64,000 nucleotides of DNA, taken from sequence record PP620640; one strand, given 5' to 3'. A program made the position numbers and the translations under genes. Of this stretch, positions 2,994 through 49,928 are shown piece after piece (positions within the stretch are counted from its first letter, which is position 1; every line of letters starts with the position of its first letter). This DNA is from Escherichia phage fKMPT1. A model generated the notes under the pieces. The model made no database searches. It saw nothing but the letters and a program-made list of their open reading frames with translations, and had not been told where the DNA came from.

Positions 2994-3323
2994 TTAATCT
3001 GCCAGCCTTAAATTAAAATTAACACCAAATTTTTCGCATACTTCCAACATATACTCAAGCGAGACATTACCAGTGAGGTGGATTATGTTGGATACGCGAG
3101 CCTGAGAGATACCACAAATTTTAGCAACTTGCTCTTGAGAAAGACCTCTGGATTTAATCTCTCTCTTAAAACGATGTGCAACGAAGTCTCTCATTTCGTC
3201 TACATCCATTGGACAAATATAACTCTCCATTTCAGCCTCTCTGTCAACCTCCCAATCATCTTGTGGAGCATAAGGGTCAAAAGTCTCATTCATCTTTCTT
3301 CTTCCGTTTGCGTGAAGTGTCAA
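2994..3323 (-). CDS. helix-turn-helix (XRE-like) DNA-binding protein
   Basis: SQEQVAKICGISQARVSNI HTH-like segment. Confidence 0.55.
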   Translation of the reverse strand: MTLHANGRRKMNETFDPYAPQDDWEVDREAEMESYICPMDVDEMRDFVAHRFKREIKSRGLSQEQVAKICGISQARVSNIIHLTGNVSLEYMLEVCEKFGVNFNLRLAD

Positions 3324-3498
3324 TCAATGAATCTATGTTTGTAGCCCTAACCTTTTCACGTTCATCGTTAAGATAATCATCAAGAGCCTTTTCAATCTGT
3401 GAATCATCTTGACAGATAACTGTAAAGACTGTAAAGCCGTCTGTATCGTCAATTATCTTACCATAACCGCTTCTGGGGTGTAACTTTTTAAGAGCCAT
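3286..3498 (-). CDS. hypothetical protein
   Basis: 70-aa ORF with basic C-terminus; overlaps neighbour by 38 nt. Confidence 0.35.
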   Translation of the reverse strand: MALKKLHPRSGYGKIIDDTDGFTVFTVICQDDSQIEKALDDYLNDEREKVRATNIDSLIDTSRKRKKKDE

Positions 3499-3499
3499 A

Positions 3500-3883
3500 T
3501 CAAATACCTGTGCAGCTTCTGTTTTCTAAGAAATACTCAACACCATACATAGCTTTTTGCATCAAATCTTCTTTAAACTGGATGCGATGGTTGAGCATAG
3601 CCTGTACATCAATATCATCATGGTGCTTTTCTTTAATATTTGCAGATTGCAGGAAATACTCTCCAAGAACACGATACTGGTAGTCAGTTACCTTATCAGT
3701 CATCTCTGTCAAAGACTCTTCAGAGATTGGTTTAAGTAGCTCACCTTTAGATAGCGCAACACCTTTTACAATCTGGCAAGTGTCTTCTGGAACACCTGAT
3801 AAGTCCACATTTGGAAGTTCTGTTGCATTGACTGGTAAATTCATTGCCATAACCATTGCAGCAGCTAATAAAATCTTTTTCAT
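3500..3883 (-). CDS. secreted/periplasmic small protein
   Basis: N-terminal signal peptide MKKILLAAAMVMAMNLPVNA. Confidence 0.55.
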   Translation of the reverse strand: MKKILLAAAMVMAMNLPVNATELPNVDLSGVPEDTCQIVKGVALSKGELLKPISEESLTEMTDKVTDYQYRVLGEYFLQSANIKEKHHDDIDVQAMLNHRIQFKEDLMQKAMYGVEYFLENRSCTGI

Positions 3884-4468
3884 AATGACCTCAAAGTTAT
3901 ATTAAATTTTGTATTACATTGAGTATAAAAATAAGCTATAACACCTGACTTGTCAACAGATTTTATAGCTTATTTGGCAGATTTTTTATAAGGCTACTGC
4001 CATCCTTCCATACCACACCAAACCACACCTTACCTCACACCACCACACCCAACCGAGCCTGACCTTATTAAAAGACCCTCTTAAAGACCTTTTAAAAAGG
4101 TAAGTCTCATTTTAATGTAGTTGAGACTAACTACCCATACTTTACCGGACCTTACTGGACCATACCTAACACCACCGAACCAAACCATACACCACCGAAC
4201 CGTACCATACCAGACATCACTTAAAAACCCTCTTAGAAAGACTCTTAAGTGATGCTGGTGAGTACCCGTTGGTTTATGCTGCTCAGTATACTCACCAAAT
4301 TTTCTATGTCAACAACTTTTATAAAAAAGTTCTGATAGCTATATGCGTCACGAAACAAAAGATTGTAAACAAGACACCCATTGCAAAAGATGTGTCCAAA
4401 AGCTTACTTGCAACGTATGACAATACAAAGACAACCAGTATAAACAAAATGACTGTACTGAACATAGT

Positions 4469-5569
4469 TTACTCATAATCCCTAATAACTAGCCCAACAG
4501 GAAACTGTAAAGACCCCTTACGAGTCATCTTCTGGAACTGAACCGTTAAAGGTTTCCCGATAAACTCTTCAGGATGCTCAGCAAGATACTGTTTCTTCTC
4601 ATGAGTAGTCTTCCATGAGACATCTACAAAGACGTTAGGAAGCGTCTCTACAACGAACTTGCCATGACCACGTTTATCGGTCTTTACACCAGTTACTTTA
4701 AACTCTTCAGTGTGCATCTTCTTGTGCTTAATCAAGAAGTATGAACGGTGACAACACTCATAGAAGGAGTCTTCAGAAATTGAACGGTACATTGCACCTT
4801 CAAACTTAGCTTCAACCCACTTATCATGGGCTTCATCAAACTCTTCCCAAGAGTTAACACGACGAGATTTAACAGGGACAACTTTACAGCCATCTCTAAA
4901 GTCATTCAATGGTGAAGTCTCAATAATATCTCTACGCTCAGGCCACGTCTTAGTACTGTCACAGATATCATACCAGTAGAACTGGAGTAGATGTCGGTCT
5001 GGATTGTCAGCATTCTTAATCATAGACACAATGTCTTCTAAGTCCCAACCATGAGCATAAATCTCGCCATCAAAGTCTTTAACTTGCGGATGTAATTTAA
5101 GCAACAAAAGTAAATCTGGGATTAGTTCTGCTGGAACGTTGTAAACAGTATTCTCACGAGAATAAGCCGTGAAGCTAACTGAATCAGCATCTCTTGAAAT
5201 TCTACAACGAACACCATCAAGTTTTGGTTGAGCATCAGCAGGGAATATCAAATACTTTGCATGACTAACCTTTGCAGCATCATGCGCAAGCTGTACACCT
5301 ACCTTCTCAGTATTCTGTGCAGACTCTTTTGTGTAAGCATAACCTTTGCGGTCAACCTGCTTTTTATACTTAGCAGCAACTTCAAAGAGAGCTTGCTGTT
5401 CAGCGTTACGCTCATTCTTTTTACCGATGTTTTTAGGTTCTGCTGTATACTCTTCAAACATCATCTTGCCATTCTCTTTACCGTAGGTTGTAATAACTTT
5501 GTCGCCTACAGCAACACATGACCAGACGTTGAAGGAGCCATCTTTATTTTGTTTGTATAGAATTGTCAT
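4469..5569 (-). CDS. ATP-dependent DNA ligase
   Basis: 366 aa; adenylation motif I KLDGVR. Confidence 0.8.
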   Translation of the reverse strand: MTILYKQNKDGSFNVWSCVAVGDKVITTYGKENGKMMFEEYTAEPKNIGKKNERNAEQQALFEVAAKYKKQVDRKGYAYTKESAQNTEKVGVQLAHDAAKVSHAKYLIFPADAQPKLDGVRCRISRDADSVSFTAYSRENTVYNVPAELIPDLLLLLKLHPQVKDFDGEIYAHGWDLEDIVSMIKNADNPDRHLLQFYWYDICDSTKTWPERRDIIETSPLNDFRDGCKVVPVKSRRVNSWEEFDEAHDKWVEAKFEGAMYRSISEDSFYECCHRSYFLIKHKKMHTEEFKVTGVKTDKRGHGKFVVETLPNVFVDVSWKTTHEKKQYLAEHPEEFIGKPLTVQFQKMTRKGSLQFPVGLVIRDYE

Positions 5570-35891: not shown

Positions 35892-35970
35892 AGTGTTTGA
35901 CAAGGGGCTTCAAAGCCCCTTAGAATAGTCTTACAAAATGATTTATTAACTAACAAGAGAGAGTAATAAG

Positions 35971-40728: not shown

Positions 40729-41514
40729 ATGGGTATTGTAAAAATCATCAATGGTGATATCTTTGCAGCATTTGATAAAGGTAAGTTTGACATCATCGGT
40801 CACGGTTGCAACTGTATGAACTTAATGGGTGCAGGTATCGCTGACAAGATTTCTAAACTTTACCCAAAAGCATATGAGACCGATACAGAAGTTTATCTGT
40901 ATGCAGGTGGTATAGGTCACAAACCCTGTGAAAATTTACTAGGCAATTTCTCTGTAGCACGTTTAGAACAAGGCCGTATAGCTAACCTTTACACTCAGCT
41001 TAAGACTGGTAAAGATGCCCGATACAGTGCTTTAGAGTCATCTTTGAAACAGCTTAACAGATACTGTGAAGTTAACCAGTTGAAGAAAGTTGGTTTACCT
41101 ATGATTGGTGCAGGTATCGGTGGACTGGACCCTCAAGCCGTTACCGTTATCATTAATCAGGTGATGAAGAGTGTAGATGTGTATCTGTATGTCTACGAAG
41201 GGGAGATGTACCACGAGTTACGCTCAGGTTGGAAGAACTACTGTGAACCAGAATACTTTGCAGGTGTAGTAACGTTCACTGATGATGCAGTTACCCTCTT
41301 CAGACGAAGAAAAGGTAAGATACATCAAAGTAACCCTCCGGTTGAAAAGATGTCTCTAAGTAACGCTCTAGTTACCCACCTGTCGAAGAGCAATCACAGA
41401 ATTGCCGTGACATTTGGTAGCGATGCAGATACATATATCTATGCAAGAACTGATGAGGATGTTGAGGAAATTTTCTCTTCACCAGAAGTTACCTTCTTAG
41501 ACGCAAAGAACTAA
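40729..41514 (+). CDS. macro-domain (ADP-ribose binding/hydrolase) protein
   Basis: N-terminal IINGDIF...DIIGHGCNCMNLMGAGIADKI resembles macro-domain Gly-rich ADP-ribose pocket. Confidence 0.6.
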   Translation: MGIVKIINGDIFAAFDKGKFDIIGHGCNCMNLMGAGIADKISKLYPKAYETDTEVYLYAGGIGHKPCENLLGNFSVARLEQGRIANLYTQLKTGKDARYSALESSLKQLNRYCEVNQLKKVGLPMIGAGIGGLDPQAVTVIINQVMKSVDVYLYVYEGEMYHELRSGWKNYCEPEYFAGVVTFTDDAVTLFRRRKGKIHQSNPPVEKMSLSNALVTHLSKSNHRIAVTFGSDADTYIYARTDEDVEEIFSSPEVTFLDAKN

Positions 41515-41544
41515 GAAACTCTGTATAATATTCACAATAGACTA

Positions 41545-41590
41545 AGCCTTCCTTATCTGGTAAATTTTTTAGGTAAGGAGGGCTTTTTCA
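41545..41590 (+). terminator. rho-independent terminator
   Basis: ccttcctta...taaggaggg hairpin + TTTTT. Confidence 0.55.
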
Positions 41591-41768
41591 TTTTAGAATT
41601 GTGCAGGTAGAGTTCTGGACAGAAATCTGTAGAGAGAATTTTGAACTCCAAAGAGAAAATTCATTTTCAAACTGTGCAGGTAATCTCCAAAGAGCTTTTT
41701 CATTTTCAAAACGTGCAGAGAAAAATCAGGTCGGGCAAGAAAAATCATTTTCGAATTGTGCAGGTAGG
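41588..41768 (+). repeat. four direct repeats (iteron-like) cattttcNaaNtgtgcaggta
   Basis: copies at about 41588, 41659, 41700, 41745 with variable spacers; followed by AT-rich tract 41915-41945. Confidence 0.6.
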
Positions 41769-41945
41769 TGGGTGCAGGTGGGGATGTCGCCATTTCTCAC
41801 AAGGCTACCACATCTGAAAAGAAAAGTCAACAGAAAAATTTGTAGCGGATTGAAAAATAATTCTTGATTGTAGTTCTGTTTTGTGGTAGTCGCGTGCGCC
41901 CGTTTCATTACAGTTTTTTGAAAAAAAATATTTTTAAAATTTTTA

Positions 41946-41974
41946 TTGACTCCTCGAACGGGTTTTTATAGTAT
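41946..41974 (+). promoter_or_regulatory. sigma70-like promoter feeding the small-ORF array
   Basis: TTGACT - 17 nt - TAGTAT. Confidence 0.5.
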
Positions 41975-41980
41975 TTGCAT

Positions 41981-42035
41981 CAACGGGGAGGGAATGAACT
42001 TCCCACTAACTAACCTTAAACTAGGAGATTCTAAA
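41981..42035 (+). repeat. type-B conserved leader (hairpin + Shine-Dalgarno); copies also at 44043, 44906, 46128, 46696, 47291
   Basis: caacGGGGAGGgaatgaCCTTCCCCactaagtaaaacccttaaactaggagattcaaaaATG repeated 6 times. Confidence 0.8.
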
Positions 42036-42242
42036 ATGATTTACAGCCGTGAATTGATGGTCACAACTAACGTTAACACAAAGGTAAAACGTTTTTATAT
42101 GCAAGTATGCGGCGCATGGCGTAGAATATCAGAATCTGATTATTGCAACTATGTAGAAACGGCTATTAATTCTAATTGCTATCTTACAAAGAATACAAAG
42201 CGACATATAAAACAGACAGCGGTTTACTATTACGATATATAA
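42036..42242 (+). CDS. cassette small protein 1
   Basis: 68 aa; ATG after conserved leader; track ORF 41946 is a spurious upstream extension. Confidence 0.55.
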   Translation: MIYSRELMVTTNVNTKVKRFYMQVCGAWRRISESDYCNYVETAINSNCYLTKNTKRHIKQTAVYYYDI

Positions 42243-42332
42243 AAAGTACTTTACAAGGGGCTTATAGTTCGATAAAGTAAGCCCCAGATAAAAAGCTTTA
42301 TCACATTAACCTTAAACTAGGAGATTCAAAAA
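42243..42332 (+). repeat. type-A conserved intergenic element (8-bp hairpin + Shine-Dalgarno); copies also at 42717, 43058, 44373, 45166
   Basis: tttacaaGGGGCTTAtagttcgataaagTAAGCCCCagataaagagctttac...aaactaggagattcaaaaATG repeated 5 times. Confidence 0.8.
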
Positions 42333-42716
42333 ATGGCTTATCGTGCACCTAAATTCATCAACAAAGACAACTTCCGCAACGCACTGGAAAAATCACTTGG
42401 TGAGAACTTTACAGGTCAGATTATTGTTGTTCACGCATATAATTTTAAGTATGATATTAACGGGAACAGAATCAACCATTACACGGCAACCATGTTAGAT
42501 GGTGCGCTTTCAAGTGAAAAAGCCGTACTGAATGCACTTGCTGGACGTGGCAAAAACCTGATAAAATGCGATAAGAGACGTTATCAAGGTGGCGCATATG
42601 GTTATGATGATGCTGTTTACCATCTTGAAAATATGGGCTATCAGGTGGAAAAAGCCGGAGTGTCTCAAATAATCGGCAGTGATGGTTATGTGACAATTTT
42701 CAAAATTAACGGATAA
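42333..42716 (+). CDS. cassette small protein 2
   Basis: 127-aa ORF behind type-A leader. Confidence 0.6.
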   Translation: MAYRAPKFINKDNFRNALEKSLGENFTGQIIVVHAYNFKYDINGNRINHYTATMLDGALSSEKAVLNALAGRGKNLIKCDKRRYQGGAYGYDDAVYHLENMGYQVEKAGVSQIIGSDGYVTIFKING

Positions 42717-42801
42717 AGTACTTTACAAGGGGCTTATAGTTCGATAAAGTAAGCCCCAGATAAAGAGCTTTACCACTCAATCCTAAATTGGAGATTCTAA
42801 A

Positions 42802-43059
42802 ATGGCTATTATCAAAAACGTTGTAATTACTGCAAAAACTCGCGATGACGCTCGCATCATGGCGAAAAAGTTAGGCGGGAAAGTTGTTGACAACGGAAAA
42901 CAATCTGCTGTAAGGTGGGGCGTGAAGGCTGATAAACAACTAACCTTAAAACGCAGTTCAAACAATCTTTTTAAAGGTGTAAAATCACTCGGTAAAGTGA
43001 ACGTGTTTACCAAAAAAGGCTATAAAATGCACTTATCATTAACTGGCAATTTAATCTGA
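42802..43059 (+). CDS. cassette small protein 3 (basic)
   Basis: 85-aa ORF behind type-A leader. Confidence 0.6.
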   Translation: MAIIKNVVITAKTRDDARIMAKKLGGKVVDNGKQSAVRWGVKADKQLTLKRSSNNLFKGVKSLGKVNVFTKKGYKMHLSLTGNLI

Positions 43060-43149
43060 TAAAGTACTTTACAGGGGGCTTAAAAGCTGATATCTTAAGC
43101 CCCAGATAAAGAGCTTTACTACATTAACCTTAAACTAGGAGATTCAAAA

Positions 43150-43662
43150 ATGAAAACTGTAGACGCTACCTTTGAAGTTGTAAAAGAAAAATTTTCCATC
43201 ATTTACGAAGCTGTTAACTGCTACGAAGCAAGCCATAGCCTTGATAATTGGGAATTTACAGATAATCATCAAGGCGGTGTGACTATTAAAAACCCCAACT
43301 ATCGTTATAATGCTTTTAAATATGCAATCCCTTTACATTACAGCCTTAAACAGCTTTCAAGCGACTATGCAAAACAAGGCCGGGAAAATCCATCAAAAGC
43401 GGCCTATATCAGCTTGCAGAGAGAACTAGAAAGGGATTTAGAAGCATCATCATATAATATTGCCGCAAAAGTTGTAGACGCAAACGGGAAAACGGTTTTA
43501 GATAGTTTTTCTGTTGGTTACGCTTTCGATTGGTGCTATAGCGACGGCGTCGATTTAGCGGATAGACTAAAAGAGGAAGTGAGCAATTCAGGTGCAGAAT
43601 CTGAAGTTATGGAACAATTGGAAGCCTTAAAAGATTCAGTGATGAATATCTTTAAAAATTAA
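43150..43662 (+). CDS. cassette protein 4
   Basis: 170-aa ORF behind type-A leader. Confidence 0.6.
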   Translation: MKTVDATFEVVKEKFSIIYEAVNCYEASHSLDNWEFTDNHQGGVTIKNPNYRYNAFKYAIPLHYSLKQLSSDYAKQGRENPSKAAYISLQRELERDLEASSYNIAAKVVDANGKTVLDSFSVGYAFDWCYSDGVDLADRLKEEVSNSGAESEVMEQLEALKDSVMNIFKN

Positions 43663-43678
43663 ATTAAGAGGAAACACC

Positions 43679-44011
43679 ATGTTAATGATGGGTATCACTG
43701 CAAGCATTGCCATTATAGCACTTTATAAGGCATATAAAGCCTATAATCTGGCAAGTAAGGCAATCACACAACAGGTCAATAATAGTCTTGTAATGAGCTT
43801 TCTGGAGCGTTTAAGTGATGAGCAATTGAAACGGTTAGAAATGAGCTTCAGATTTCAATCAAAAACTTATCAAATCAGCGACATTTTCAAAGAGGATTTT
43901 CAGCTTGTCGATGATTATAACTCACTGATAAATGCTTTAAATATCAGTGACTTAAAAGATTATTACACTGTAATTGTTCAAGAATTAAACAAACGAAAAA
44001 ATTTCTCTTGA
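43679..44011 (+). CDS. cassette protein 5 (N-terminal TM)
   Basis: 110 aa; own RBS AAGAGGAAA. Confidence 0.55.
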   Translation: MLMMGITASIAIIALYKAYKAYNLASKAITQQVNNSLVMSFLERLSDEQLKRLEMSFRFQSKTYQISDIFKEDFQLVDDYNSLINALNISDLKDYYTVIVQELNKRKNFS

Positions 44012-44098
44012 TTTTGGTTTTAAAAGCAAGTAAATTACTAATCAACGGGAGGGATGACCTCCCCACTAAGTAAAACCCTTAAACTAGGAGATTCTAAA

Positions 44099-44371
44099 AT
44101 GTATACTACTAACAACGGTCGCACCTTAAACGTAACCCTGCGCCACTATGTAAACGGGGTGATGCACTTCGAGGATTTACGGGCTGAACAGCACATTTTG
44201 GATTGGCAACTTGCAGGATTCCAAAAAACTGCTACCGGATACGGGAAAAAGATTCCAACTAGTTGGAAAGTATACTACGAAGGACGTTTGCGCAGAATTT
44301 ATCAGGATGTATATAGCAATAGCGCATCAACTTACATCATGGTAAAAGGTAAAAAATTACACTTAGTGTAA
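44099..44371 (+). CDS. cassette small protein 6
   Basis: 90 aa; ATG after type-B leader. Confidence 0.55.
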   Translation: MYTTNNGRTLNVTLRHYVNGVMHFEDLRAEQHILDWQLAGFQKTATGYGKKIPTSWKVYYEGRLRRIYQDVYSNSASTYIMVKGKKLHLV

Positions 44372-44456
44372 AGTACTTTACAGGGGGCTTATAGTTCGAT
44401 AAAGTAAGCCCCAGATAAAGAGCTTTACTACTCAATCCTAAATTGGAGATTCTAAA

Positions 44457-44861
44457 ATGGCTATTAATAACCGTGAATTATCAATCTTAAAAGCACGTTT
44501 GACCGTTAACCGGATTAATGTTATTACGTCATCAGCACCAGACGAGACACTGCACAACATTATTGGGAAGATTCAAAGTGTTGTCTTAGACGTTGAAAAC
44601 GTGAAAAACTCATTAACTGACGTTGCAGCAGGTATCACGCTAGACGGTGCACAATATGAAATGGCTGACATGTTGGGCAAATCTAAGGTAATGAATAGGG
44701 AGTTAGATTTGAAAATGTTTCGTTTTGCTGTTAAAGTGTGGCTATCTGTCGAATATGACGCAAATTTTGCAATCGCTGACTTTTTTGCAACATGGTTGCA
44801 ACGTAATTTAACAAATCACGATTTTCGTAGTATCTGTGATGCAATCTATGCAGAACTTTAA
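44457..44861 (+). CDS. cassette protein 7
   Basis: 134-aa ORF behind type-A leader. Confidence 0.6.
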   Translation: MAINNRELSILKARLTVNRINVITSSAPDETLHNIIGKIQSVVLDVENVKNSLTDVAAGITLDGAQYEMADMLGKSKVMNRELDLKMFRFAVKVWLSVEYDANFAIADFFATWLQRNLTNHDFRSICDAIYAEL

Positions 44862-44961
44862 AAAATTTTGTTGACACTGGTTTTTAAATAGATTAAATTA
44901 CACATCAACGGGAGGGATGACCTCCCCACTAAGTAAAACCCTTAAACTAGGAGATTCTAAA

Positions 44962-45165
44962 ATGGCTATTATCAACGGTTTAAACATTGAAACTACTCAC
45001 ATCAAAGATATCAAAGTTGGCGATATAGTCCTTTTTCACGGTGTAGAGAAAACTGTTACCGCAAAAGATATCAAAGAGAGTTCATTCATGGGCCGGACCC
45101 TCTTCGGTGATTCGTATTGCTTAGGTTACCGTGCAGTTTTAAAAGTTGTCAAAAATAACAGATAA
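44962..45165 (+). CDS. cassette small protein 8
   Basis: 67 aa; ATG after type-B leader. Confidence 0.55.
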   Translation: MAIINGLNIETTHIKDIKVGDIVLFHGVEKTVTAKDIKESSFMGRTLFGDSYCLGYRAVLKVVKNNR

Positions 45166-45252
45166 AGTGCTTTACAAGGGGCTTAAAAGCTGATATCTTA
45201 AGCCCCAGATAAAGAACTTTACCACTCAATCCTTAAACTAGGAGATTCAAAA

Positions 45253-45795
45253 ATGAAATGCTTTCACGGTACTACTCAAGAAAACTTTATCAACCTGATT
45301 AATAACGGCGATAAGCCATCAGGTGCATGGAATTGTTCGGATATGGATGGAAATTTTTACGTTTATCCAGAAAATAAAATCTATGGCGACGATGAGGAAG
45401 AGATAGCATCTGAAGGTATCCAGCAAGCGTTAGGCAATGCAGCTATCACCGCAGCTTTTCAGATGAAAACCCAAAATATTGTTATCTTAGAACTTGATAT
45501 CCCAGAAGATGAGTTAAATGATGATTATTCTTGTGATAATATGTCTGGCGTGGCAAGTTTTACAGAATATTTCGATTTAAACTGGATTAAAAAGGTTTAC
45601 ATCACTGAATTTAATGCTATGTTTTCACCATTTTGTCTGCCTTCACTGGATAACCCAAATTTAAATTATATTGATGAGTCTCTGGAACTTCTCGCTAAAA
45701 GTGTTCAACAGTCCGACAGTATTCAGGTTTTTTGTGACATCATGGACACACTAACAGGAAACATTATAGAAAGCGATTTAAAGGGCTTTTTATAA
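45253..45795 (+). CDS. cassette protein 9 (acidic)
   Basis: 180-aa ORF behind type-A leader; terminator follows. Confidence 0.6.
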   Translation: MKCFHGTTQENFINLINNGDKPSGAWNCSDMDGNFYVYPENKIYGDDEEEIASEGIQQALGNAAITAAFQMKTQNIVILELDIPEDELNDDYSCDNMSGVASFTEYFDLNWIKKVYITEFNAMFSPFCLPSLDNPNLNYIDESLELLAKSVQQSDSIQVFCDIMDTLTGNIIESDLKGFL

Positions 45796-45861
45796 TAACC
45801 TATACAATCACCTTATAAACACTGATTAGCCCCTTCTAGGGGCTTTTAAGGAGCTTTAATC

Positions 45862-46095
45862 ATGCTTACAACCGTTTATCTTATCCTTTCTATTTGTAAC
45901 GGTCATTCATGCGATTTTAAAGGGCTTGAGGAGTTTACAGGGAGTAAAGAAAATGCTATTCAAGTTTGCCAGATAGCAAGGCAAGACTACCCCGCCAGTG
46001 ATGATATACAATGTTATTTTAAGACAGAAGACAGCGACGGCGTTTATTTTGATAGCGTTGATGGTCAATATGAAATTATCATTGATAAAGATTAG
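45862..46095 (+). CDS. cassette small protein 10
   Basis: 77 aa, hydrophobic N-terminus. Confidence 0.5.
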   Translation: MLTTVYLILSICNGHSCDFKGLEEFTGSKENAIQVCQIARQDYPASDDIQCYFKTEDSDGVYFDSVDGQYEIIIDKD

Positions 46096-46188
46096 ACAAG
46101 CCGGATAAAAGCCTGTAAATTGTCAATCAACGGGGAGGGGATGACCTTCCCCCACTAAGTAAAACCCTTAAACTAGGAGATTCAAAAA

Positions 46189-46530
46189 ATGGCTTATGTA
46201 ACCGTCATTACTGATAAAGCTGGGTCATCTTGGTCAACTCAAGTAAGTGATAAGATGACACCTATGCAGTGCCTAAAATACTTTGAGCAATGGAATAAAG
46301 GCGAGGATGTAAGCCCCTTCCAAGTGATGCAGATTATCCATACAGACAACGAAGGGAATAAAACGACCTTGAACAGTGAATACTACGCAAGCCGTTTTGA
46401 AACGAGAAGTAAAACGATGAAACTATTACGTGAATCCGGTTATTCTCATATTGCTGCGCTAATCTGGGATGACTTGCTAAAAAATCAGCGTATCAGCTAC
46501 GTAAAACCTGAAAAAATATTCATCAGTTAA
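46189..46530 (+). CDS. cassette protein 11
   Basis: 113-aa ORF behind type-B leader. Confidence 0.6.
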   Translation: MAYVTVITDKAGSSWSTQVSDKMTPMQCLKYFEQWNKGEDVSPFQVMQIIHTDNEGNKTTLNSEYYASRFETRSKTMKLLRESGYSHIAALIWDDLLKNQRISYVKPEKIFIS

Positions 46531-46750
46531 TCAATAACTTACAAAAAACTTTCAAAAAAGTGTTGACAATACCCCTTGACATTGGTAATGTTGTTCGAGG
46601 GGGTTTATCTTAAAGGGATTCACTTAAAAGATTTCTTTAAAGATAAACTGAAAAAATTGCTTGCAAAGGCAAATCAAATCCAGTAAATTACTAATCAACG
46701 GGGGGATAACCTCCCCACTAAGTAAAGTCCTTAAACTAGGAGATTCAAAA

Positions 46751-47281
46751 ATGAACAAGTTCAAAGCCATCAATTACATCCGCTCAAATGCTGTAATGTC
46801 TAAGCCTGTAAAAGATACCTACGAATTTCGTTGTAATGGTGTACACTTTGCAACAATCACCAAATCAGAAAACGGGGCTTATTACGTCCATCGTCGTAAT
46901 GTTGCAACCGTTGTTGTCTCTCATTTTATGCAAGCTGTCGCGGAGCTTCTCCCGATGTTTTTAGGGCTTTACTTAGATGAGTGTAAAAACGTTCACAGTC
47001 ACGTTAAAAACCTTTTAAATAGTTATAAAATGGCTTACGAGCGTTCTCTCAAGTACTTAAACAAGTTTTATAAAGCCCCTGTAAACACTGTTTCAATGGC
47101 TTACACTGTAAGCGGTGAGCTGGTTAGTCTCTTCGAAGTGGAAGAAATCGAACTGCATGACTTACGCCCTGAAGGTTATTCTAAGACCATCGGCGAAGGT
47201 TTAACGTTCAATATCAAGAACCTAGAAAAAACTTTAAAAGATATCGAAAAAGATATTGACGAGACCATCAAAAATCTGTAA
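46751..47281 (+). CDS. cassette protein 12
   Basis: 176 aa; ATG after type-B leader. Confidence 0.55.
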   Translation: MNKFKAINYIRSNAVMSKPVKDTYEFRCNGVHFATITKSENGAYYVHRRNVATVVVSHFMQAVAELLPMFLGLYLDECKNVHSHVKNLLNSYKMAYERSLKYLNKFYKAPVNTVSMAYTVSGELVSLFEVEEIELHDLRPEGYSKTIGEGLTFNIKNLEKTLKDIEKDIDETIKNL

Positions 47282-47349
47282 ATTGTCAATCAACGGGGAG
47301 GGAATGACCTTCCCCACTAAGTAAAACCCTTAAACTAGGAGATTCAAAA

Positions 47350-47598
47350 ATGGCAACTATCCGCGCAACTGTTAACGAATTCGGCTTCTACTCTCTGGAC
47401 GTTAAATTTGACCTTGTAGGTACTGGTAACGCCTTTGAAATGGTGAAAGGCCTTATCAGTCAGACCATTAAAGACTATAACCCTTCTGATGAGTTCTGGG
47501 AGGAAACAAAACAGGAAGTTTTTACGCATGGACACACCTATCACTATTGGGGTGAAAAAATTGTCTCCCTGTACTATGATAAAGAAGGCACTAACTAA
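47350..47598 (+). CDS. cassette small protein 13
   Basis: 82-aa ORF behind type-B leader. Confidence 0.6.
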   Translation: MATIRATVNEFGFYSLDVKFDLVGTGNAFEMVKGLISQTIKDYNPSDEFWEETKQEVFTHGHTYHYWGEKIVSLYYDKEGTN

Positions 47599-47599
47599 T

Positions 47600-49330
47600 C
47601 AACGCAACGGGGCTAAATAGCCCCAGATACCTTTACAGCCCCTTTATATTGATTCGATAGAATCTATCTCATAGGGGCTTTTTTACATCTCTGTAATAGC
47701 CTCTATACAATCCCTTTCCTTCCCTTTCCAGAATCTATCCCACTAATTCGATAGAATCTTACCAGACCTTAAAAGTAATAACTCTATAGCTTACTCTATA
47801 GCCCCTTATCAAATCAACTTAAATAAAAGCCCATAACCCGAAAGGGAAGGGCAACCACTAAAACGCTATATAAAGCTCTATAACAGCCTTATCAACCTAA
47901 CTTAAGGGATTGCATTACCTCACCCTTAAAAGCCCTTTATAAAGCTTTCTAGGGGGGCTTAAAAGAGTCTTAAAAGAATCTTATAAGGGTGTAAGCTTTA
48001 TCATCTCGTTAGCTATCCTGTGAATAACTAAAAAGGGCTTGTTAGTGTCTTAAAAGTATGTTATAGGGGGCTGTGAAGTTACTTCAAAGTTACGTGAAAG
48101 AGGCTATAAAGTTACGTAAATGCTAGCCCCCTTAACATTTTCTTAACAATTTCTTAACAATCCCTACATAGTTATGCTTGTTAGCAACTTGTTAGCCCCT
48201 TGTTAAATCTCTGTTAAGACCACGTAAAAGCCTTGTAAGAGTCTTTGGCATAGCCTTTAAAGCCCCTGTAAAGCTCTATAAAGAGGTGTCTGTATAGTTG
48301 GGGTGTAATTACTAGGAAGAGGCTTAAAAGAGCTTACAAGGGGCTATAGAGAGCTTTTAAGAGGTATGTTTAAAGAATCACTAAGAGGGAAAGGGAACTA
48401 TAGACCAAGAGATAGTGACCATGTTAATAGCTTGTTAAAAAGATTAAACACTTGTTAGGAATTTGTTAATTATCTTAACAAAATAACTCTTAAAAATTAA
48501 CTTGTTAGCTCTTATTAGTCATCTGTTAAGACTCTGTAAAGCCTATGTATCAACTGTTAAGAAACTGTTACCCTCTTGTTAAAACTGTTAAGAAACTGTT
48601 AAGACCTCTGAAGAGATGTTAAAAAGGTGTAGTATCTGTTAAGAGATTGTTAAGGATATTTTAAAATTCTGCAAAGGGGATGTTACAGGGATGTTAAGGG
48701 CTACCAAGCAGATATACATCTTCTACAGATATTTTTCAGTTCCTTCAAAGACCCTAAAAAATGACTTGATAGTCCTATTTTATAAAAATTTTAAAATTCT
48801 GAATAATTACCTAGACAGTCTTCTAAAAATACAGGCATAAACAGGCTTATAAGATACCTTGTTAGTACCGTGTTAGACCTTGTGAGATAAGGCCTGTAAA
48901 GATATTCCTGTTAAGTTTGTTAAAACAGTCTATATAGAGGCTTAGTAATACCTAGTGAACACCTATAGAGGGTAACATATCTAACCTAGAGATTAAGAGG
49001 TGTATAGGAGCTTCTAAGAGGGTGTAGAGAGATGGTTAAGGTGATTGTATAGGCTGTTAAGAAGGCTTGTTAGAGGGCTTGTTAGAGGGCTATTTAGAAG
49101 GTTTATACAGAGGAGCTATTAAGACCACTAGATAGAGACTAAGATACTATATAGTACTATATAACTATATATATAGAGAGTAAGCTTAAGAAGGATGTTA
49201 AGAAGGATAGATATTTTATTCACATATGATGGTGACCCAGAGGTTGGGACAACCGATAAAATTTTATAAAAATTATAAATTTCGTAAAATTTACTCAATA
49301 AAAAGCCCCCAATTAAGGAGGCTCTTAAGA
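47600..49330. repeat. ORF-free repeat-dense region (TGTTAAG / CTTGTTAG motif clusters)
   Basis: no ORF of 60 aa or more on either strand for 1.7 kb; dozens of short direct repeats; lies between convergent transcription units. Confidence 0.7.
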
Positions 49331-49334
49331 TATT

Positions 49335-49928
49335 TTAAACCAGTGTTTCCAGAACTGTCTTCAGTGATGACTTTGTTGTCTGATAAAAATGAGTAAATCC
49401 ATTGTTGTTATCAAATACCTGCATCATGATATCATCTCCCTTGATTGGGTACACTCGGATATCATAGTGAAAACCATTAAATACAGCAGAACCATTACAG
49501 AATGCTCGAAAGTCATCCACTGAGATATACTCTTCATGACCTGTGATTTTTATACAAACACCTTTACTCGGTCTCTTAGGGTTGATATCTTCCATCACAG
49601 ACATACTCTGTCCACCAAGAGATACCAGAGTGACCACTTTACGGTTCTTCTGTCTAAAGTACATCTTAACTTTCTGCAAAGTGTGTTCATAGAACGGATA
49701 AGATTTCTCTACAAATATTCCTTCAAGTGGCTCTTTACCATTTACAATACCCCTAGTATGCCGTACTGCGAAGATAAGTTGCTTTAGTGTGTCAAGATTT
49801 TCTTCGGATAGTGCTTCCCGAATATCATTCCAGTCAAGGACTAGGTAGTTACCTTCAACATCTTTTAAATTATCTTTTTCCATAGCTATCACACCATTAT
49901 CGTAAAACTTGGTAAGCTGGTACTGCAA
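49335..49928 (-). CDS. hypothetical protein
   Basis: 197-aa ORF. Confidence 0.55.
   Translation of the reverse strand: MQYQLTKFYDNGVIAMEKDNLKDVEGNYLVLDWNDIREALSEENLDTLKQLIFAVRHTRGIVNGKEPLEGIFVEKSYPFYEHTLQKVKMYFRQKNRKVVTLVSLGGQSMSVMEDINPKRPSKGVCIKITGHEEYISVDDFRAFCNGSAVFNGFHYDIRVYPIKGDDIMMQVFDNNNGFTHFYQTTKSSLKTVLETLV

What the first reader, a model, noticed from the sequence alone, without database searches (positions are those of the whole stretch)
41981..47640. Array of 13 small ORFs each behind one of two conserved hairpin + Shine-Dalgarno leaders
Over 5.6 kb almost every small gene (67-180 aa, none recognisable) is preceded by a conserved leader. Type B (6 copies) is a GGGGAGG/CCTTCCCC hairpin then aaactaggagattcaaaaATG. 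Type A (5 copies) is a GGGGCTTA/TAAGCCCC hairpin then the same SD. The leaders are far more conserved than the genes they drive, resembling mobile regulatory cassettes in hyperplastic phage regions. Six-frame ORFs translating the leader (...LKLGDSKM) are artefacts; the leader is nucleotide-conserved, not protein.
Basis: seen in the sequence. Interest (0 to 1): 0.8.

Follow-up and report, generated by a model that had tools for sequence, protein, structure and literature searches.

The report
Promoter–hairpin gene cassettes in Felix-O1-like phage
In a Felix-O1-like Salmonella phage, 11 of 13 small early genes of unknown function each carry one of two repeated promoter + hairpin + ribosome-site units, where related phages have gained, lost and swapped genes; this was known from T4-like phages, not this group.

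Summary
The window is Salmonella phage fBSPA4 (Felixounavirus). It has 13 small ORFs, six type B leaders and five type A leaders, far beyond chance.

- Type B is a -35 hexamer, exactly 17 nt, TAAATT, about 7 nt, then the hairpin. The hairpin therefore sits at the 5' end of the predicted mRNA.
- Type A is TTTACA, exactly 17 nt, then TAnnnT. The GGGGCTTA/TAAGCCCC stem lies in the spacer and overlaps the -10. Flanking helices extend it to about 20 bp.

This is the anatomy of PeSLs (promoter-early stem-loops) of T4-type phages RB49/phi1.

Thirty related arrays show 27 different gene orders. Every insertion, deletion and replacement junction I mapped (11 genomes) lies in a leader or at one gene boundary. 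The same gene sits behind type A in one phage and type B in another. Private hairpin variants are shared by several copies within one genome, which indicates gene conversion.

Verdict: a PeSL-like cassette array in Ounavirinae, a new member of a known kind. Promoter activity, the role of the hairpins and the recombination mechanism are inferred, not shown. All 13 proteins remain of unknown function.

The parts
41544..41593 (+). Intrinsic terminator closing the upstream operon (Felix O1 't13' equivalent); left boundary of the array
   Evidence: 17-pair stem followed by a T-run. Felix O1 Table 2 lists t13.
41946..42038 (+). Type B leader B1. TTGACT(41946)-N17-TAGTAT(41969-41974), A/T-rich UP-like tract upstream, hairpin 41985-42004, SD, ATG 42036
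42036..42242 (+). g1, 68 aa, unknown function (phrog_5293)
   Evidence: Present in 18 of 30 arrays.
42240..42335 (+). Type A leader A1. TTTACA(42250)-N17-TAAAGT(42273-42278), upper stem 42257-42285, SD, ATG 42333
42333..42716 (+). g2, 127 aa, unknown function (phrog_4495)
   Evidence: Sits behind type A or behind B1, depending on the phage.
42714..42804 (+). Type A leader A2. Its TAA is the stop codon of g2. TTTACA(42722)-N17-TAAAGT(42745-42750), upper stem 42729-42757, about 20-bp extended hairpin 42714-42772, ATG 42802
   Evidence: (z -3.66)
42802..43059 (+). g3, 85 aa, unknown function (phrog_5089)
   Evidence: Present in 23 of 30 arrays; tandemly duplicated in L039.
43057..43152 (+). Type A leader A3. 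TTTACA(43068)-N17-TATCTT(43091-43096), upper stem 43075-43103, ATG 43150
43150..43662 (+). g4, 170 aa, unknown function (phrog_4190). Homologues occur in Seunavirus 4MG and in Cronobacter and Providencia phages
43679..44011 (+). g5, 110 aa. No A or B leader; own SD (aagaggaaa) 16 nt after g4. Present in all 30 arrays. Its start is the only recurrent non-leader breakpoint (43663-43666)
44008..44101 (+). Type B leader B2. The -35 TTGATT (44008-44013) contains the g5 stop codon. -10 TAAATT 44031-44036, hairpin 44047-44063, ATG 44099
44099..44371 (+). g6, 90 aa, unknown function (phrog_3436)
44369..44459 (+). Type A leader A4. Its TAA is the g6 stop codon. TTTACA(44377)-N17-TAAAGT(44400-44405), upper stem 44384-44412, ATG 44457. 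It is 98% identical to A2
   Evidence: z -3.55
44457..44861 (+). g7, 134 aa, unknown function (phrog_4327)
44871..44964 (+). Type B leader B3. TTGACA(44871)-N17-TAAATT(44894-44899), hairpin 44910-44926, ATG 44962
   Evidence: (10 of 12 matches)
44962..45165 (+). g8, 67 aa, unknown function (phrog_3623). Not homologous to g6
45163..45255 (+). Type A leader A5. Its TAA is the g8 stop codon. TTTACA(45171)-N17-TATCTT(45194-45199), upper stem 45178-45206, ATG 45253
   Evidence: z -4.33
45253..45795 (+). g9, 180 aa, unknown function (phrog_3303). Homologues occur in Pakpunavirus and Vibrio phages
45793..45864 (+). Third leader type in front of g10. Small hairpin AGCCCC..GGGGCT (45828-45844) plus a short U-run directly before the SD. 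The stem covaries among phages. No convincing conserved promoter
45862..46095 (+). g10, 77 aa, unknown function (phrog_4640)
46093..46191 (+). Type B leader B4. The -35 TAGACA (46093) begins with the g10 stop codon. -10 TAAATT 46116-46121, hairpin 46132-46152, ATG 46189
46189..46530 (+). g11, 113 aa, unknown function
46531..46660 (+). Conserved non-coding spacer with an orphan promoter-like TTGACA-N17-TAATGT (46563-46591) spanned by a CCCCTTGA/TTCGAGGGG inverted repeat. No conserved reading frame
46661..46753 (+). Type B leader B5. TTGCAA(46661)-N17-TAAATT(46684-46689), hairpin 46700-46715, ATG 46751
46751..47281 (+). g12, 176 aa, unknown function. Its last codons supply the -35 of B6 and its stop codon is the TAA of the B6 -10
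47256..47352 (+). Type B leader B6. TTGACG(47256)-N17-TAAATT(47279-47284), hairpin 47295-47315, ATG 47350
   Evidence: z -2.69
47350..47598 (+). g13, 82 aa, unknown function
47600..47624 (+). Terminal hybrid 'T' hairpin CAACGCAACGGGGCTAAATAGCCCCAGATA (B-like 5' side, A-like 3' side), with no promoter upstream. It is the crossover partner of B6 in phages that lack g13
47637..47686 (+). Intrinsic terminator (AGCCCCT...AGGGGCT plus U-run), Felix O1 't23' equivalent; right boundary of the array
   Evidence: z -5.04; t23

Best explanation
The region is an insulated early 'hyperplastic' block of a Felix-O1-like phage. It runs from a terminator, through 13 small genes, to another terminator. Eleven of the genes sit behind one of two composite regulatory cassettes of the PeSL kind: host sigma70 promoter + GC stem-loop + strong Shine-Dalgarno/ATG.

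Type B:
- RNA polymerase would start about 7-8 nt after TAAATT, near the A of CAAC.
- Each mRNA would then begin with 3-4 free bases followed by a 6-8 bp hairpin.
- A 5'-terminal stem-loop of this geometry is known to protect E. coli mRNAs from 5'-end-dependent decay.

Type A:
- The promoter (TTTACA-N17-TAnnnT) is wrapped around the stem-loop, so its own transcript starts just 3' of the stem, at ...CCCC/AGAUAAAG.
- Read-through RNA from upstream would fold into a roughly 20-bp interrupted hairpin that begins at the stop codon of the upstream gene.
- That hairpin most likely attenuates, terminates, processes or 3'-stabilises the upstream message.
- Each gene would thus be expressed as its own unit.

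Because the cassettes are repeated every 0.3-0.6 kb, they are substrates for homologous recombination. Recombination between copies deletes, inserts, duplicates or replaces single genes without breaking expression signals, swaps leader types between genes, and homogenises the copies within a genome.

Shown here: the sequence anatomy, its conservation pattern, stem covariation, junction positions and concerted evolution.
Inferred: promoter activity, transcription start sites, what the hairpins do, and that the genes are early host-takeover or anti-defence accessories.
For: Promoters:
- All 11 leaders are picked up as -35/N17/-10 sites.
- In 61 type A copies from 16 sources (15 loci plus the window) the spacer is exactly 17 nt. 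The -10 hexamer keeps A at position 2 and T at position 6 in all copies and T at position 1 in 8 of 9 variants (Kolesnikvirus GACTAT is the exception). Positions 3-5 vary freely: TAAAGT, TATCTT, TATAGT, TACCTT, TAAGAT, TACAGT, TAGTAT, TATGAT, GACTAT.
- Kolesnikvirus copies keep TTTACA or TTGCAA at the same spacing although the outer helix is absent.
- The six type B sites use six different -35 hexamers: TTGACT, TTGATT, TTGACA, TAGACA, TTGCAA and TTGACG. Three of them overlap the 3' end of the preceding gene (two contain its stop codon; one lies wholly inside the coding sequence). All are exactly 17 nt from the -10. The chance of this is about 1e-8.

Hairpins:
- Type A folds with z-scores of -3.0 to -4.3.
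- The type A upper stem is 97.8% paired, with 4 pairs changed on both sides. The outer helices are 85-93% paired, with G-C to U-A swaps. The covariation score is 0.21 against 0.09 for shuffles (0 of 500 shuffles reach it) and at most 0.035 for slid controls.
- All 71 unique type B copies fold into a hairpin starting exactly 3 nt after the A of CAAC.
- Type B is more stable on the + strand in 60 of 71 copies.

PeSL anatomy as published matches closely: stem-loop between -35 and -10, overlapping the -10, or just before the start site; GGGG...CCCC stems; G-T pairs; SD + ATG at the 3' end; upstream stop codon at the 5' end; tested promoter and terminator activity.

Recombination:
- 30 arrays give 27 gene orders and about 36 gene families.
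- 36 of 48 alignment breakpoints lie in leaders, and the flanking HSPs overlap by a leader-sized stretch (8-99 nt, often close to a whole leader).
- g13 is deleted by fusion of B6 to the terminal hairpin at the shared CAACGGGG.
- g2, g8, g9, g11, x29, x33 and x38 each occur behind type A in some phages and type B in others. x33 is 100% identical as protein in both contexts.
- The order of g8 and x29 is inverted between L020 and L027.
- Private hairpin variants are shared by 2-4 copies in one genome. One of these is a compensatory GGGGTTTA/TAAACCCC variant (type B).

Expression: Felix O1 RT-PCR shows ORF16, 20, 21 and 22 (= g4, g7, g11, g12) maximal at 5 min.
Against: - No transcription start, 3'-end or reporter data exist for any Ounavirinae leader.
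- Type A -10 hexamers are weak. The conserved CTTTACA could partly reflect the RNA helix CUUUA/UAAAG rather than a -35.
- Neither hairpin is followed by a U-tract, so terminator function is not evident from sequence.
- Type A shows no strand asymmetry in folding energy, so a DNA-level role is not excluded.
- The Felix O1 RT-PCR also puts ORF14, 17, 19 and 23 at 25 min, so not all cassettes look 'early'.
- The breakpoint enrichment is confounded. Almost all intergenic DNA here is leader, and only intergenic indels leave viable phage.
- Gene order is mostly conserved.
Confidence: 0.75

Rival explanations
1. Pure RNA leaders. The whole array is one polycistronic early transcript from the first promoter (B1). 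The hairpins are processing or stability elements, for example T7-like RNase III sites for type A. The conserved SD block is a translation initiation cassette. The -35/-10 look-alikes are by-products of AT-rich sequence and of the RNA helices.
For: - The type A extended hairpin (about 20 bp in three helices with a 3x3 internal loop) has the general shape of phage RNase III sites, and its outer helices covary. Selection therefore acts on RNA that includes sequence upstream of the putative -35.
- Type A -10 hexamers are weak.
- B1 has the best UP-like context.
Against: - Exact 17-nt spacing and the T1/A2/T6 conservation pattern hold across 9 loop variants.
- -35-like hexamers persist in Kolesnikvirus, where the outer helix is absent.
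- Six unrelated type B upstream sequences all supply a -35 at 17 nt, with a chance of about 1e-8.
- Homologous architecture in RB49/phi1 has measured promoter activity.
Confidence: 0.1
2. DNA operators. The inverted repeats are binding sites for a dimeric phage or host protein that represses or times the promoters, or that is a recombination protein. The 'hairpins' never form.
For: - The inverted repeats overlap promoter cores.
- Type A has no strand bias in folding energy.
- The PeSL authors themselves speculated about a GGGG/CCCC-binding recombination protein.
Against: - The stems change sequence while keeping pairing. Different stems coexist in one genome: GGGGCTTA/TAAGCCCC with GGGGTTATC/GATAGCCCC in Felix O1 and Mijalis.
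- G-U pairs are abundant: 37 of 64 at type B pair 6, and 9-26 sequences at three type A pairs. These would be mismatches for a symmetric DNA site.
- Changes in the flanks break the local palindromes but keep the long-range pairing.
- Type B folds better on the + strand.
Confidence: 0.07
3. Fossil of tandem duplication. One ancestral gene + leader was amplified and the genes diverged beyond recognition. The leaders are kept by purifying selection for expression only, and recombination at leaders plays no special role.
For: - The repeats are direct, regularly spaced and on one strand.
- A recent tandem duplication of one cassette exists in L039.
Against: - The 13 proteins show no detectable similarity to each other and belong to 10 or more different PHROGs.
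- Several have homologues in unrelated phage lineages.
- Orthologous leaders diverge as fast as coding sequence, while copies within a genome stay alike and share private variants.
- Leader types are exchanged between genes.
Confidence: 0.05
4. Selfish miniature mobile elements (MITE- or REP-like) that inserted between genes and happen to carry expression signals.
For: Type A is about 58 bp with imperfect terminal inverted repeats (TAAAGTACTTTA / TAAAGAGCTTTA).
Against: - There are no target-site duplications, and no copies outside this one array (6 of 6 type B places in the genome are here).
- All copies have the same orientation and a fixed register with stop codon and ATG.
- No transposase or integrase is reported in these phages.
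Confidence: 0.03

Closest known systems
PeSLs (promoter-early stem-loops) of T4-type phages RB49/phi1, also T4/PST and KVP40/nt-1 (Arbiol et al. 2010, PMC2839356; Comeau et al. 2014, PMC4122927)
   Same: - Composite intergenic unit: upstream stop codon, sigma70-like -35/-10, a GC stem-loop (often GGGG...CCCC, with G-T pairs), then SD + ATG. The stem-loop lies between -35 and -10, overlaps the -10, or sits just after the -10.
- Clustered in front of small ORFans in a hyperplastic region.
- Indels and replacements between close relatives are bounded by the units, with crossovers between the -10/stem and the SD.
   Different: - Different virus lineage (Ounavirinae, about 87-kb genome), and all copies confined to one 5.7-kb array rather than about 50 copies genome-wide.
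- Only two sharply defined sequence classes, sharing a 24-nt SD block.
- Type A has additional outer helices giving a roughly 20-bp hairpin.
- Intragenomic concerted evolution is documented here.
- Promoter and terminator activity and mini-circles were measured for RB49/phi1 but not here.
[quoted passage not shown] 2015, PMC4309531)
   Same: - A highly conserved repeated host-type promoter (TTGACA-N17-TAgAAT) in a variable block of small early genes.
- These phages even carry a homologue of g9 (JG004 locus).
   Different: No conserved stem-loop or common SD block was described, there are fewer copies (2-6), and no role in recombination was analysed.
RNase III processing hairpins between early genes of phage T7 (from general knowledge; not tested here)
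   Same: Type A read-through RNA would form an irregular hairpin of about 20 bp, with upper and lower stems separated by an internal loop. It lies between consecutive early genes, directly after a stop codon.
   Different: - The T7 sites contain no promoter.
- Cleavage by RNase III is untested here.
- The outer helices are absent in Kolesnikvirus copies.
- Type B is too short.
5'-terminal stem-loop mRNA stabilisers such as the E. coli ompA 5' UTR (from general knowledge)
   Same: The type B hairpin starts 3-4 nt from the predicted 5' end in all 71 variants.
   Different: The start site is predicted, not mapped, and no half-life data exist.
Integron gene cassettes and lambdoid 'morons'
   Same: Single promoter-served accessory genes are added or removed as units at defined intergenic sites.
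   Different: - No integrase, attI or attC is present, and exchange appears to use ordinary homology between leaders.
- Morons are not flanked by a shared repeat (discussion).

Membership tests
PeSL (promoter-early stem-loop) cassettes | sigma70-like -35 and -10 hexamers at about 17-nt spacing in every unit | tested here: met
   One search lists all 11 units. The spacer is exactly 17 nt in 61 type A and 71 type B variants.
PeSL (promoter-early stem-loop) cassettes | Stable GC stem-loop between -35 and -10, overlapping the -10, or just downstream of the -10 | tested here: met
   Type A lies in the spacer and overlaps the -10. Type B begins 10 nt after the -10..
PeSL (promoter-early stem-loop) cassettes | Unit bounded by the upstream gene's stop codon and by the SD + ATG of the downstream gene | tested here: met
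   Three of five type A units supply the upstream stop codon (TAAAGT). In three type B units the stop codon lies inside the -35 or -10..
PeSL (promoter-early stem-loop) cassettes | Clustered in a hyperplastic region in front of small genes of unknown function | tested here: met
   No credible Pfam hits; the only match (g5, GMIP-like_FCH) scores 15.8 bits, below its gathering cut-off of 27. The 10 ORFs scanned (g1-g10) match only PHROGs of unknown function; g11-g13 were not scanned against PHROGs. Thirty arrays give 27 gene orders.
PeSL (promoter-early stem-loop) cassettes | Indels and replacements between close relatives have their junctions in the units | tested here: met
   36 of 48 breakpoints lie in leaders, with HSP overlaps of 8-99 nt, often close to a whole leader. 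Leader-type swaps occur. Caveat: intergenic DNA here is almost entirely leader.
PeSL (promoter-early stem-loop) cassettes | Measured strong promoter activity, and terminator activity of the stem-loop | not testable with these tools
   Shown only for RB49/phi1. Felix O1 RT-PCR shows only that the genes are transcribed.
PeSL (promoter-early stem-loop) cassettes | Formation of excised cassette mini-circles | not testable with these tools
   Needs inverse PCR on infected cells.
PeSL (promoter-early stem-loop) cassettes | Carried by a T4-type phage | tested here: not met
   The host genome is a Felixounavirus, subfamily Ounavirinae. The family was defined by architecture rather than descent, so this limits 'member' to 'same kind in another lineage'.
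Rho-independent terminator | GC hairpin immediately followed by a U-tract | tested here: not met
   The hairpins are followed by AGATAAAG (type A) or ACTAAGTAAA (type B), and none is listed. Only the flanking elements at 41544-41593 and 47637-47686 qualify.
RNase III processing site (T7 early type) | Irregular double-stranded hairpin of about 20 bp with an internal loop | tested here: inconclusive
   Type A has 6 + 5 + 9 bp with a 3x3 loop, with covariation in Felixounavirus and Mooglevirus but not in Kolesnikvirus. Sequence determinants were not evaluated.
RNase III processing site (T7 early type) | Cleavage by host RNase III | not testable with these tools
   Needs infection of an rnc mutant or an in vitro assay.
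T4 MotA-dependent middle promoter | MotA box (a/t)(a/t)(a/t)TGCTTtA 11-13 bp upstream of the -10 | tested here: not met
   TGCTTTA occurs in some type A copies but lies 19 nt from the -10. No MotA/AsiA is reported for Felix O1.
Integron cassette array | Integrase with attI and attC sites | not tested
   No integrase is reported in Felixounavirus genomes. No search was made here.
Rfam RNA families | Match to any curated covariance model | tested here: not met
   0 matches at E<=1 over 41000-49500.

The most novel reading that the evidence does not exclude
The leaders may form a recombinase-independent, integron-like gene-capture system shared by the whole subfamily Ounavirinae, with convergent versions in T4-like and rV5/4MG-like phages.

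In this reading a cassette carries its own SD-proximal end and plugs into any resident promoter-hairpin by crossover in the 12-17-nt shared block. Gene conversion keeps the docking sites alike.

The type A hairpin would double as an RNase III site whose cleavage product has the same 5' end as the transcript of the embedded promoter. A cassette would then be expressed identically whether transcribed from its own promoter or by read-through.
Probability: 0.25. Interest if true: 0.65.

Novelty: new member of a known kind. Interest (0 to 1): 0.5.

Why it matters
Felix O1 relatives are widely used for Salmonella and E. coli typing, biocontrol and therapy, yet their transcription signals have been called unknown. 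The Felix O1 genome paper listed these two repeats only as 'direct repeats' and did not find these promoters.

Practical consequences of recognising the leaders as promoter-hairpin-RBS cassettes:
- It gives 11 testable early transcription units.
- It corrects mis-annotated start codons and minus-strand 'terminators'.
- It marks natural, expression-ready docking sites for engineering payload genes.
- It explains why the small early genes differ between otherwise near-identical phages. Such genes are likely host-takeover or anti-defence accessories.

Wider point: PeSL-type modular shuffling is not a peculiarity of T4-like phages. Together with the 4MG and PAK_P1 observations, it looks like a general solution in large virulent phages.

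Tried and rejected
- **RNAalifold on type B.** A MAFFT alignment of 23 type B leaders gave no consensus hairpin because the variable stem length puts the arms out of register. I replaced it with per-sequence folding.
- **MAFFT alignment of type A.** It misplaced a loop gap in the 3' arm. I rebuilt the alignment with loops replaced.
- **Database scans.** Rfam found nothing. Pfam gave no hit above its cut-off; the one weak g5 match (15.8 bits against 27) is not credible. PHROGs, run on g1-g10 only, gave families of unknown function.
- **First protein clustering.** It merged g6 and g8 through leader-translated N-termini. BLASTP shows no similarity.
- **A 32-aa ORF at 46588-46686.** It ends in the -10 of B5, but the frame is not conserved in the other ten loci compared.
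- **MotA-box reading of AAAGTGCTTTACA.** Rejected because the spacing is wrong.
- **Minus-strand rho-independent terminators, as annotated in XTG1.** Rejected: there is no U-tract and no minus-strand genes.
- **Strand argument from G-U pairs.** It holds for type B but not energetically for type A.
- **Breakpoint enrichment.** It is confounded by survivorship of intergenic indels, so I rely more on leader-type swaps and shared private variants.
- **Literature searches for start-site or RNA-seq data on Felix O1-like phages.** None found. One search was badly posed.
- **Not attempted.** Structure prediction of the cassette proteins, because it does not bear on the leaders.

Full report
**Identity and observation.** The window matches Salmonella phage fBSPA4 (OR711204.1) at 100% identity. 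About 250 other Felix-O1-like genomes match at 75-95% coverage in several pieces. Positions 41.9-47.7 kb hold 13 + strand ORFs of 67-180 aa; I call them g1-g13. Repeat finding gives five copies of a 98-nt unit (type A) and six copies of a 54-nt unit (type B). Pattern searches find the shared 24-nt SD block 9 times, the type A core 5 times and the type B core 5 times, each against 0 to 0.7 expected by chance. Two genes lack both leaders: g5 follows g4 by 16 nt, and g10 has a different small hairpin. The ORFs that read through the leader are artefacts. The unit runs from 41946 to about 47686 and is bracketed by intrinsic terminators at 41544-41593 and 47637-47686.

A consensus scan flags every leader as -35/N17/-10.
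- *Type B.* It reads [-35]-N17-TAAATT-7 nt-AAC-hairpin-ACTAAGTAAAACCCTTAAACTAGGAGATTCAAAAATG.
  - The six sites use six different -35 hexamers (TTGACT, TTGATT, TTGACA, TAGACA, TTGCAA, TTGACG) and six unrelated spacers.
  - Three of the six overlap the 3' end of the preceding gene. The stop codons of g5 and g10 lie in a -35. The -35 of B6 lies inside the g12 coding sequence, and the g12 stop codon is the TAA of the B6 -10.
  - All are at exactly 17 nt. The chance of six independent matches of at least 4 of 6 bases at a fixed position is about 1e-8.
- *Type A.* It reads TAAAGTAC-TTTACA-N17-TAnnnT, with the GGGGCTTA/TAAGCCCC stem inside the spacer and overlapping the -10.
  - In 61 copies from 16 sources (15 loci plus the window, three genera) the spacer is always 17 nt.
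  - The loop sequence changes, but the hexamer keeps A at position 2 and T at position 6 in every copy and T at position 1 in 8 of 9 variants. Positions 3-5 vary. That is the conservation profile of a sigma70 -10 element.
  - Kolesnikvirus copies (Erwinia and Hafnia phages) keep TTTACA or TTGCAA at the same distance, with a TGn-extended -10.

**Hairpins.**
- *Type B.* All 71 unique variants fold into a 3-8 bp stem that begins exactly 3 nt after the A of CAAC. With a start 7-8 nt after the -10, the mRNA would begin with 3-4 free bases and then the stem. Stem sequences differ: GGGGAGG/CCTCCCC, GGGAAGG/CCTTCCC, and GGGGC/GCCCC in Mooglevirus. G-U pairs are frequent. The + strand folds better in 60 of 71 copies, which argues for RNA.
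- *Type A.* Folding the region from stop codon to ATG gives z-scores of -3.0 to -4.3. It also reveals two further helices, UAAAGU/GCUUUA and CUUUA/UAAAG, around the 9-bp upper stem. Together they form a roughly 20-bp interrupted hairpin.
  - On a loop-masked alignment of 35 distinct copies, 92.7% of cells pair, against 84.7% in shuffles and at most 56.5% when partners are slid.
  - The upper stem is 97.8% paired, with four pairs changed on both sides.
  - The outer helices show G-C to U-A, and U-G to C-G or U-A. These flank changes break the local palindromes but keep the long-range pairing.
  - The sequences are related, so these numbers are support, not proof.
  - The outer helices are absent in Kolesnikvirus, and type A shows no strand asymmetry.
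- Because the type A stem lies upstream of its own predicted start, RNA-level selection implies that read-through transcripts matter.
- Neither hairpin has a U-tract, and there is no Rfam match.

**Comparison with known systems.** The architecture matches the PeSLs of RB49/phi1. Those have a stop codon in AT-rich sequence, a sigma70-like promoter, and a stem-loop (often GGGG...CCCC, with G-T pairs). The stem-loop is most often between -35 and -10 or overlapping the -10, and sometimes just before the start site. SD and ATG follow. They lie in front of ORFans in hyperplastic regions. Their promoter activity was about 13,000 Miller units, and the stem-loop reduced reporter expression like a strong terminator. 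The Felix O1 genome paper recorded the two units only as 57-bp and 39-bp 'direct repeats'. It did not list them among its promoters and called the regulation unknown. I found no paper linking Ounavirinae to PeSLs. A related observation is the 41-nt repeated promoter of PAK_P1-like phages.

**Evidence that the leaders are recombination sites.** I compared 11 GenBank Felixounavirus loci and then 30 non-identical arrays that include IMG/VR contigs.
- The 30 arrays show 27 different gene orders and about 36 gene families. Only g5, g6, g7 and g11 are present in all 30; g9 and g10 are in 29.
- Against the window, 36 of 48 alignment ends fall in leaders, which make up 25% of the region. The two flanking alignments overlap by 8-99 nt, often close to a whole leader, so one intact leader matches both parents. 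All but two of the other ends are at the g4/g5 boundary, 43663-43666; the two exceptions lie inside g3 (42822 and 43048).
- Example 1: Felix O1 lacks g2-g3 (A1 joined to A3) and g8-g10 (B3 joined to B4).
- Example 2: phages lacking g13 have the B6 promoter fused to the terminal hybrid hairpin at the shared CAACGGGG.
- Example 3: phages lacking g1 have B1 joined to g2 through the common SD block.
- The same gene has type A in some phages and type B in others (g2, g8, g9, g11, x29, x33, x38). The 48-aa x33 is 100% identical in both contexts and keeps its own SD-proximal sequence. This places crossovers between the stem and the SD, as in PeSL mini-circles.
- g8 and x29 occur in both orders, a distant x18 homologue sits at a second position, and g3 is tandemly duplicated in L039.
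- Caveat: nearly all intergenic DNA here is leader, so breakpoint enrichment alone could reflect survival of intergenic indels only.

**Concerted evolution.** Hairpin variants private to one genome are shared by several of its leaders: TATAGT in all four type A copies of ESCO56, the doubly compensated GGGGTTTA/TAAACCCC in both copies of REP9, and others in Felix O1 and VpaE1. Hairpin and SD variants occur in many combinations. Type B behaves the same way. Accordingly, leaders are 84-85% identical between copies in the window while their genes are unrelated. At the same position in different phages, however, the leaders diverge as fast as the coding sequence.

**Genes.** None of the 13 has a credible Pfam domain; the only match (g5, GMIP-like_FCH, 15.8 bits) falls below its gathering cut-off of 27. 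The ten scanned against PHROGs (g1-g10) fall in families of unknown function; g11-g13 were not scanned. g9 has homologues in Pakpunavirus and Vibrio phages. g4 has homologues in Seunavirus 4MG and in Cronobacter and Providencia phages. In 4MG the neighbouring small ORFs also each have a promoter, a GC hairpin and an SD. Felix O1 RT-PCR shows g4, g7, g11 and g12 homologues maximal at 5 min, and others at 25 min.

**Conclusion.** The most likely reading (0.75) is a PeSL-type array: host-promoter + stem-loop + RBS cassettes that make each accessory gene an autonomous early unit and serve as homology patches for gain, loss, replacement and homogenisation.
- I rate type B as promoters with high confidence and type A with fair confidence.
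- The hairpin roles are inferred only. For type B the likely role is 5' protection. For type A it is attenuation, RNase III-type processing or 3' protection of upstream RNA.
- Rivals are less well supported: pure RNA leaders (0.10), DNA operators (0.07), duplication fossils (0.05) and MITE-like elements (0.03).
- This is a new member of a known kind, and of moderate interest.

Noticed in passing
window 41579-41763: Four direct repeats (core TCATTTTNNAANNGTGCAG; 28-34 nt units spaced 73, 39 and 45 nt) lie in the 350-nt non-coding gap between the upstream terminator and the first array promoter. Two to four copies occur at the same place in all 11 Felixounavirus loci examined. Function unknown; possibilities are a regulator binding array or an origin.
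   Followed up: partly
window 46531-46660: A 130-nt spacer between g11 and the g12 promoter is conserved at nucleotide level. It carries TTGACA-N17-TAATGT (46563-46591) spanned by a CCCCTTGA/TTCGAGGGG inverted repeat. The reading frame is not conserved among 11 loci. It may be an orphan PeSL or a small RNA.
   Followed up: partly
window 35897-35925: Another promoter with a stem-loop entirely in its spacer, outside the array: TTGACA-a-GGGGCTTCAAAGCCCC-t-TAGAAT, preceded by TAAAGTGT as in type A.
   Followed up: no
window 40729-41514: The gene immediately upstream of the array encodes a 261-aa macro-domain protein (Pfam PF01661, E 1e-7). Records annotate it as phosphatase or O-acetyl-ADP-ribose deacetylase.
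   Followed up: partly
window 47700-49300: About 1.6 kb downstream of the array has no ORF of 60 aa or more and is dense in short direct repeats such as CTGTTAAG, CTTGTTAG and GGGCTTAAAAG (families D9-D11; ORF list).
   Followed up: no
L017 (Escherichia phage 4MG, Seunavirus) 3032-5216: Next to the g4 homologue, every small ORF is preceded by a sigma70-like promoter, a GC hairpin (in the spacer or just after the -10) and an SD. This is the same architecture in a third phage lineage.
   Followed up: partly
L039 (IMGVR_UViG_2974556886_000001) 2340-2530 of the extracted array: Tandem duplication of the g3 cassette. At the junction a complete leader runs up to its ATG and is fused directly to the -35 of the next type A leader (...ggagaatctaaaATGctttacatgggg). 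This makes an 'empty' cassette. An assembly artefact is not excluded.
   Followed up: partly
window 42333, 42802, 44457, 44962, 46189: The repeat runs into the first codons: ATGGCTATTA in g3, g7 and g8, and ATGGCTTAT in g2 and g11. This could reflect crossovers inside the first codons or selection on the start region.
   Followed up: no
window 44047-44063 and the other type B stems: The 5' arm of the type B stem is Shine-Dalgarno-like (GGAGG) and the 3' arm is anti-SD-like (CCUCC). Significance unknown.
   Followed up: no
L015 (XTG1) and L001 (Felix O1): Two annotation errors. XTG1 annotates the type B hairpins as minus-strand rho-independent terminators. Felix O1 ORF19 is annotated from an ATG inside the leader, at 318 nt against 273 nt elsewhere.
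   Followed up: yes
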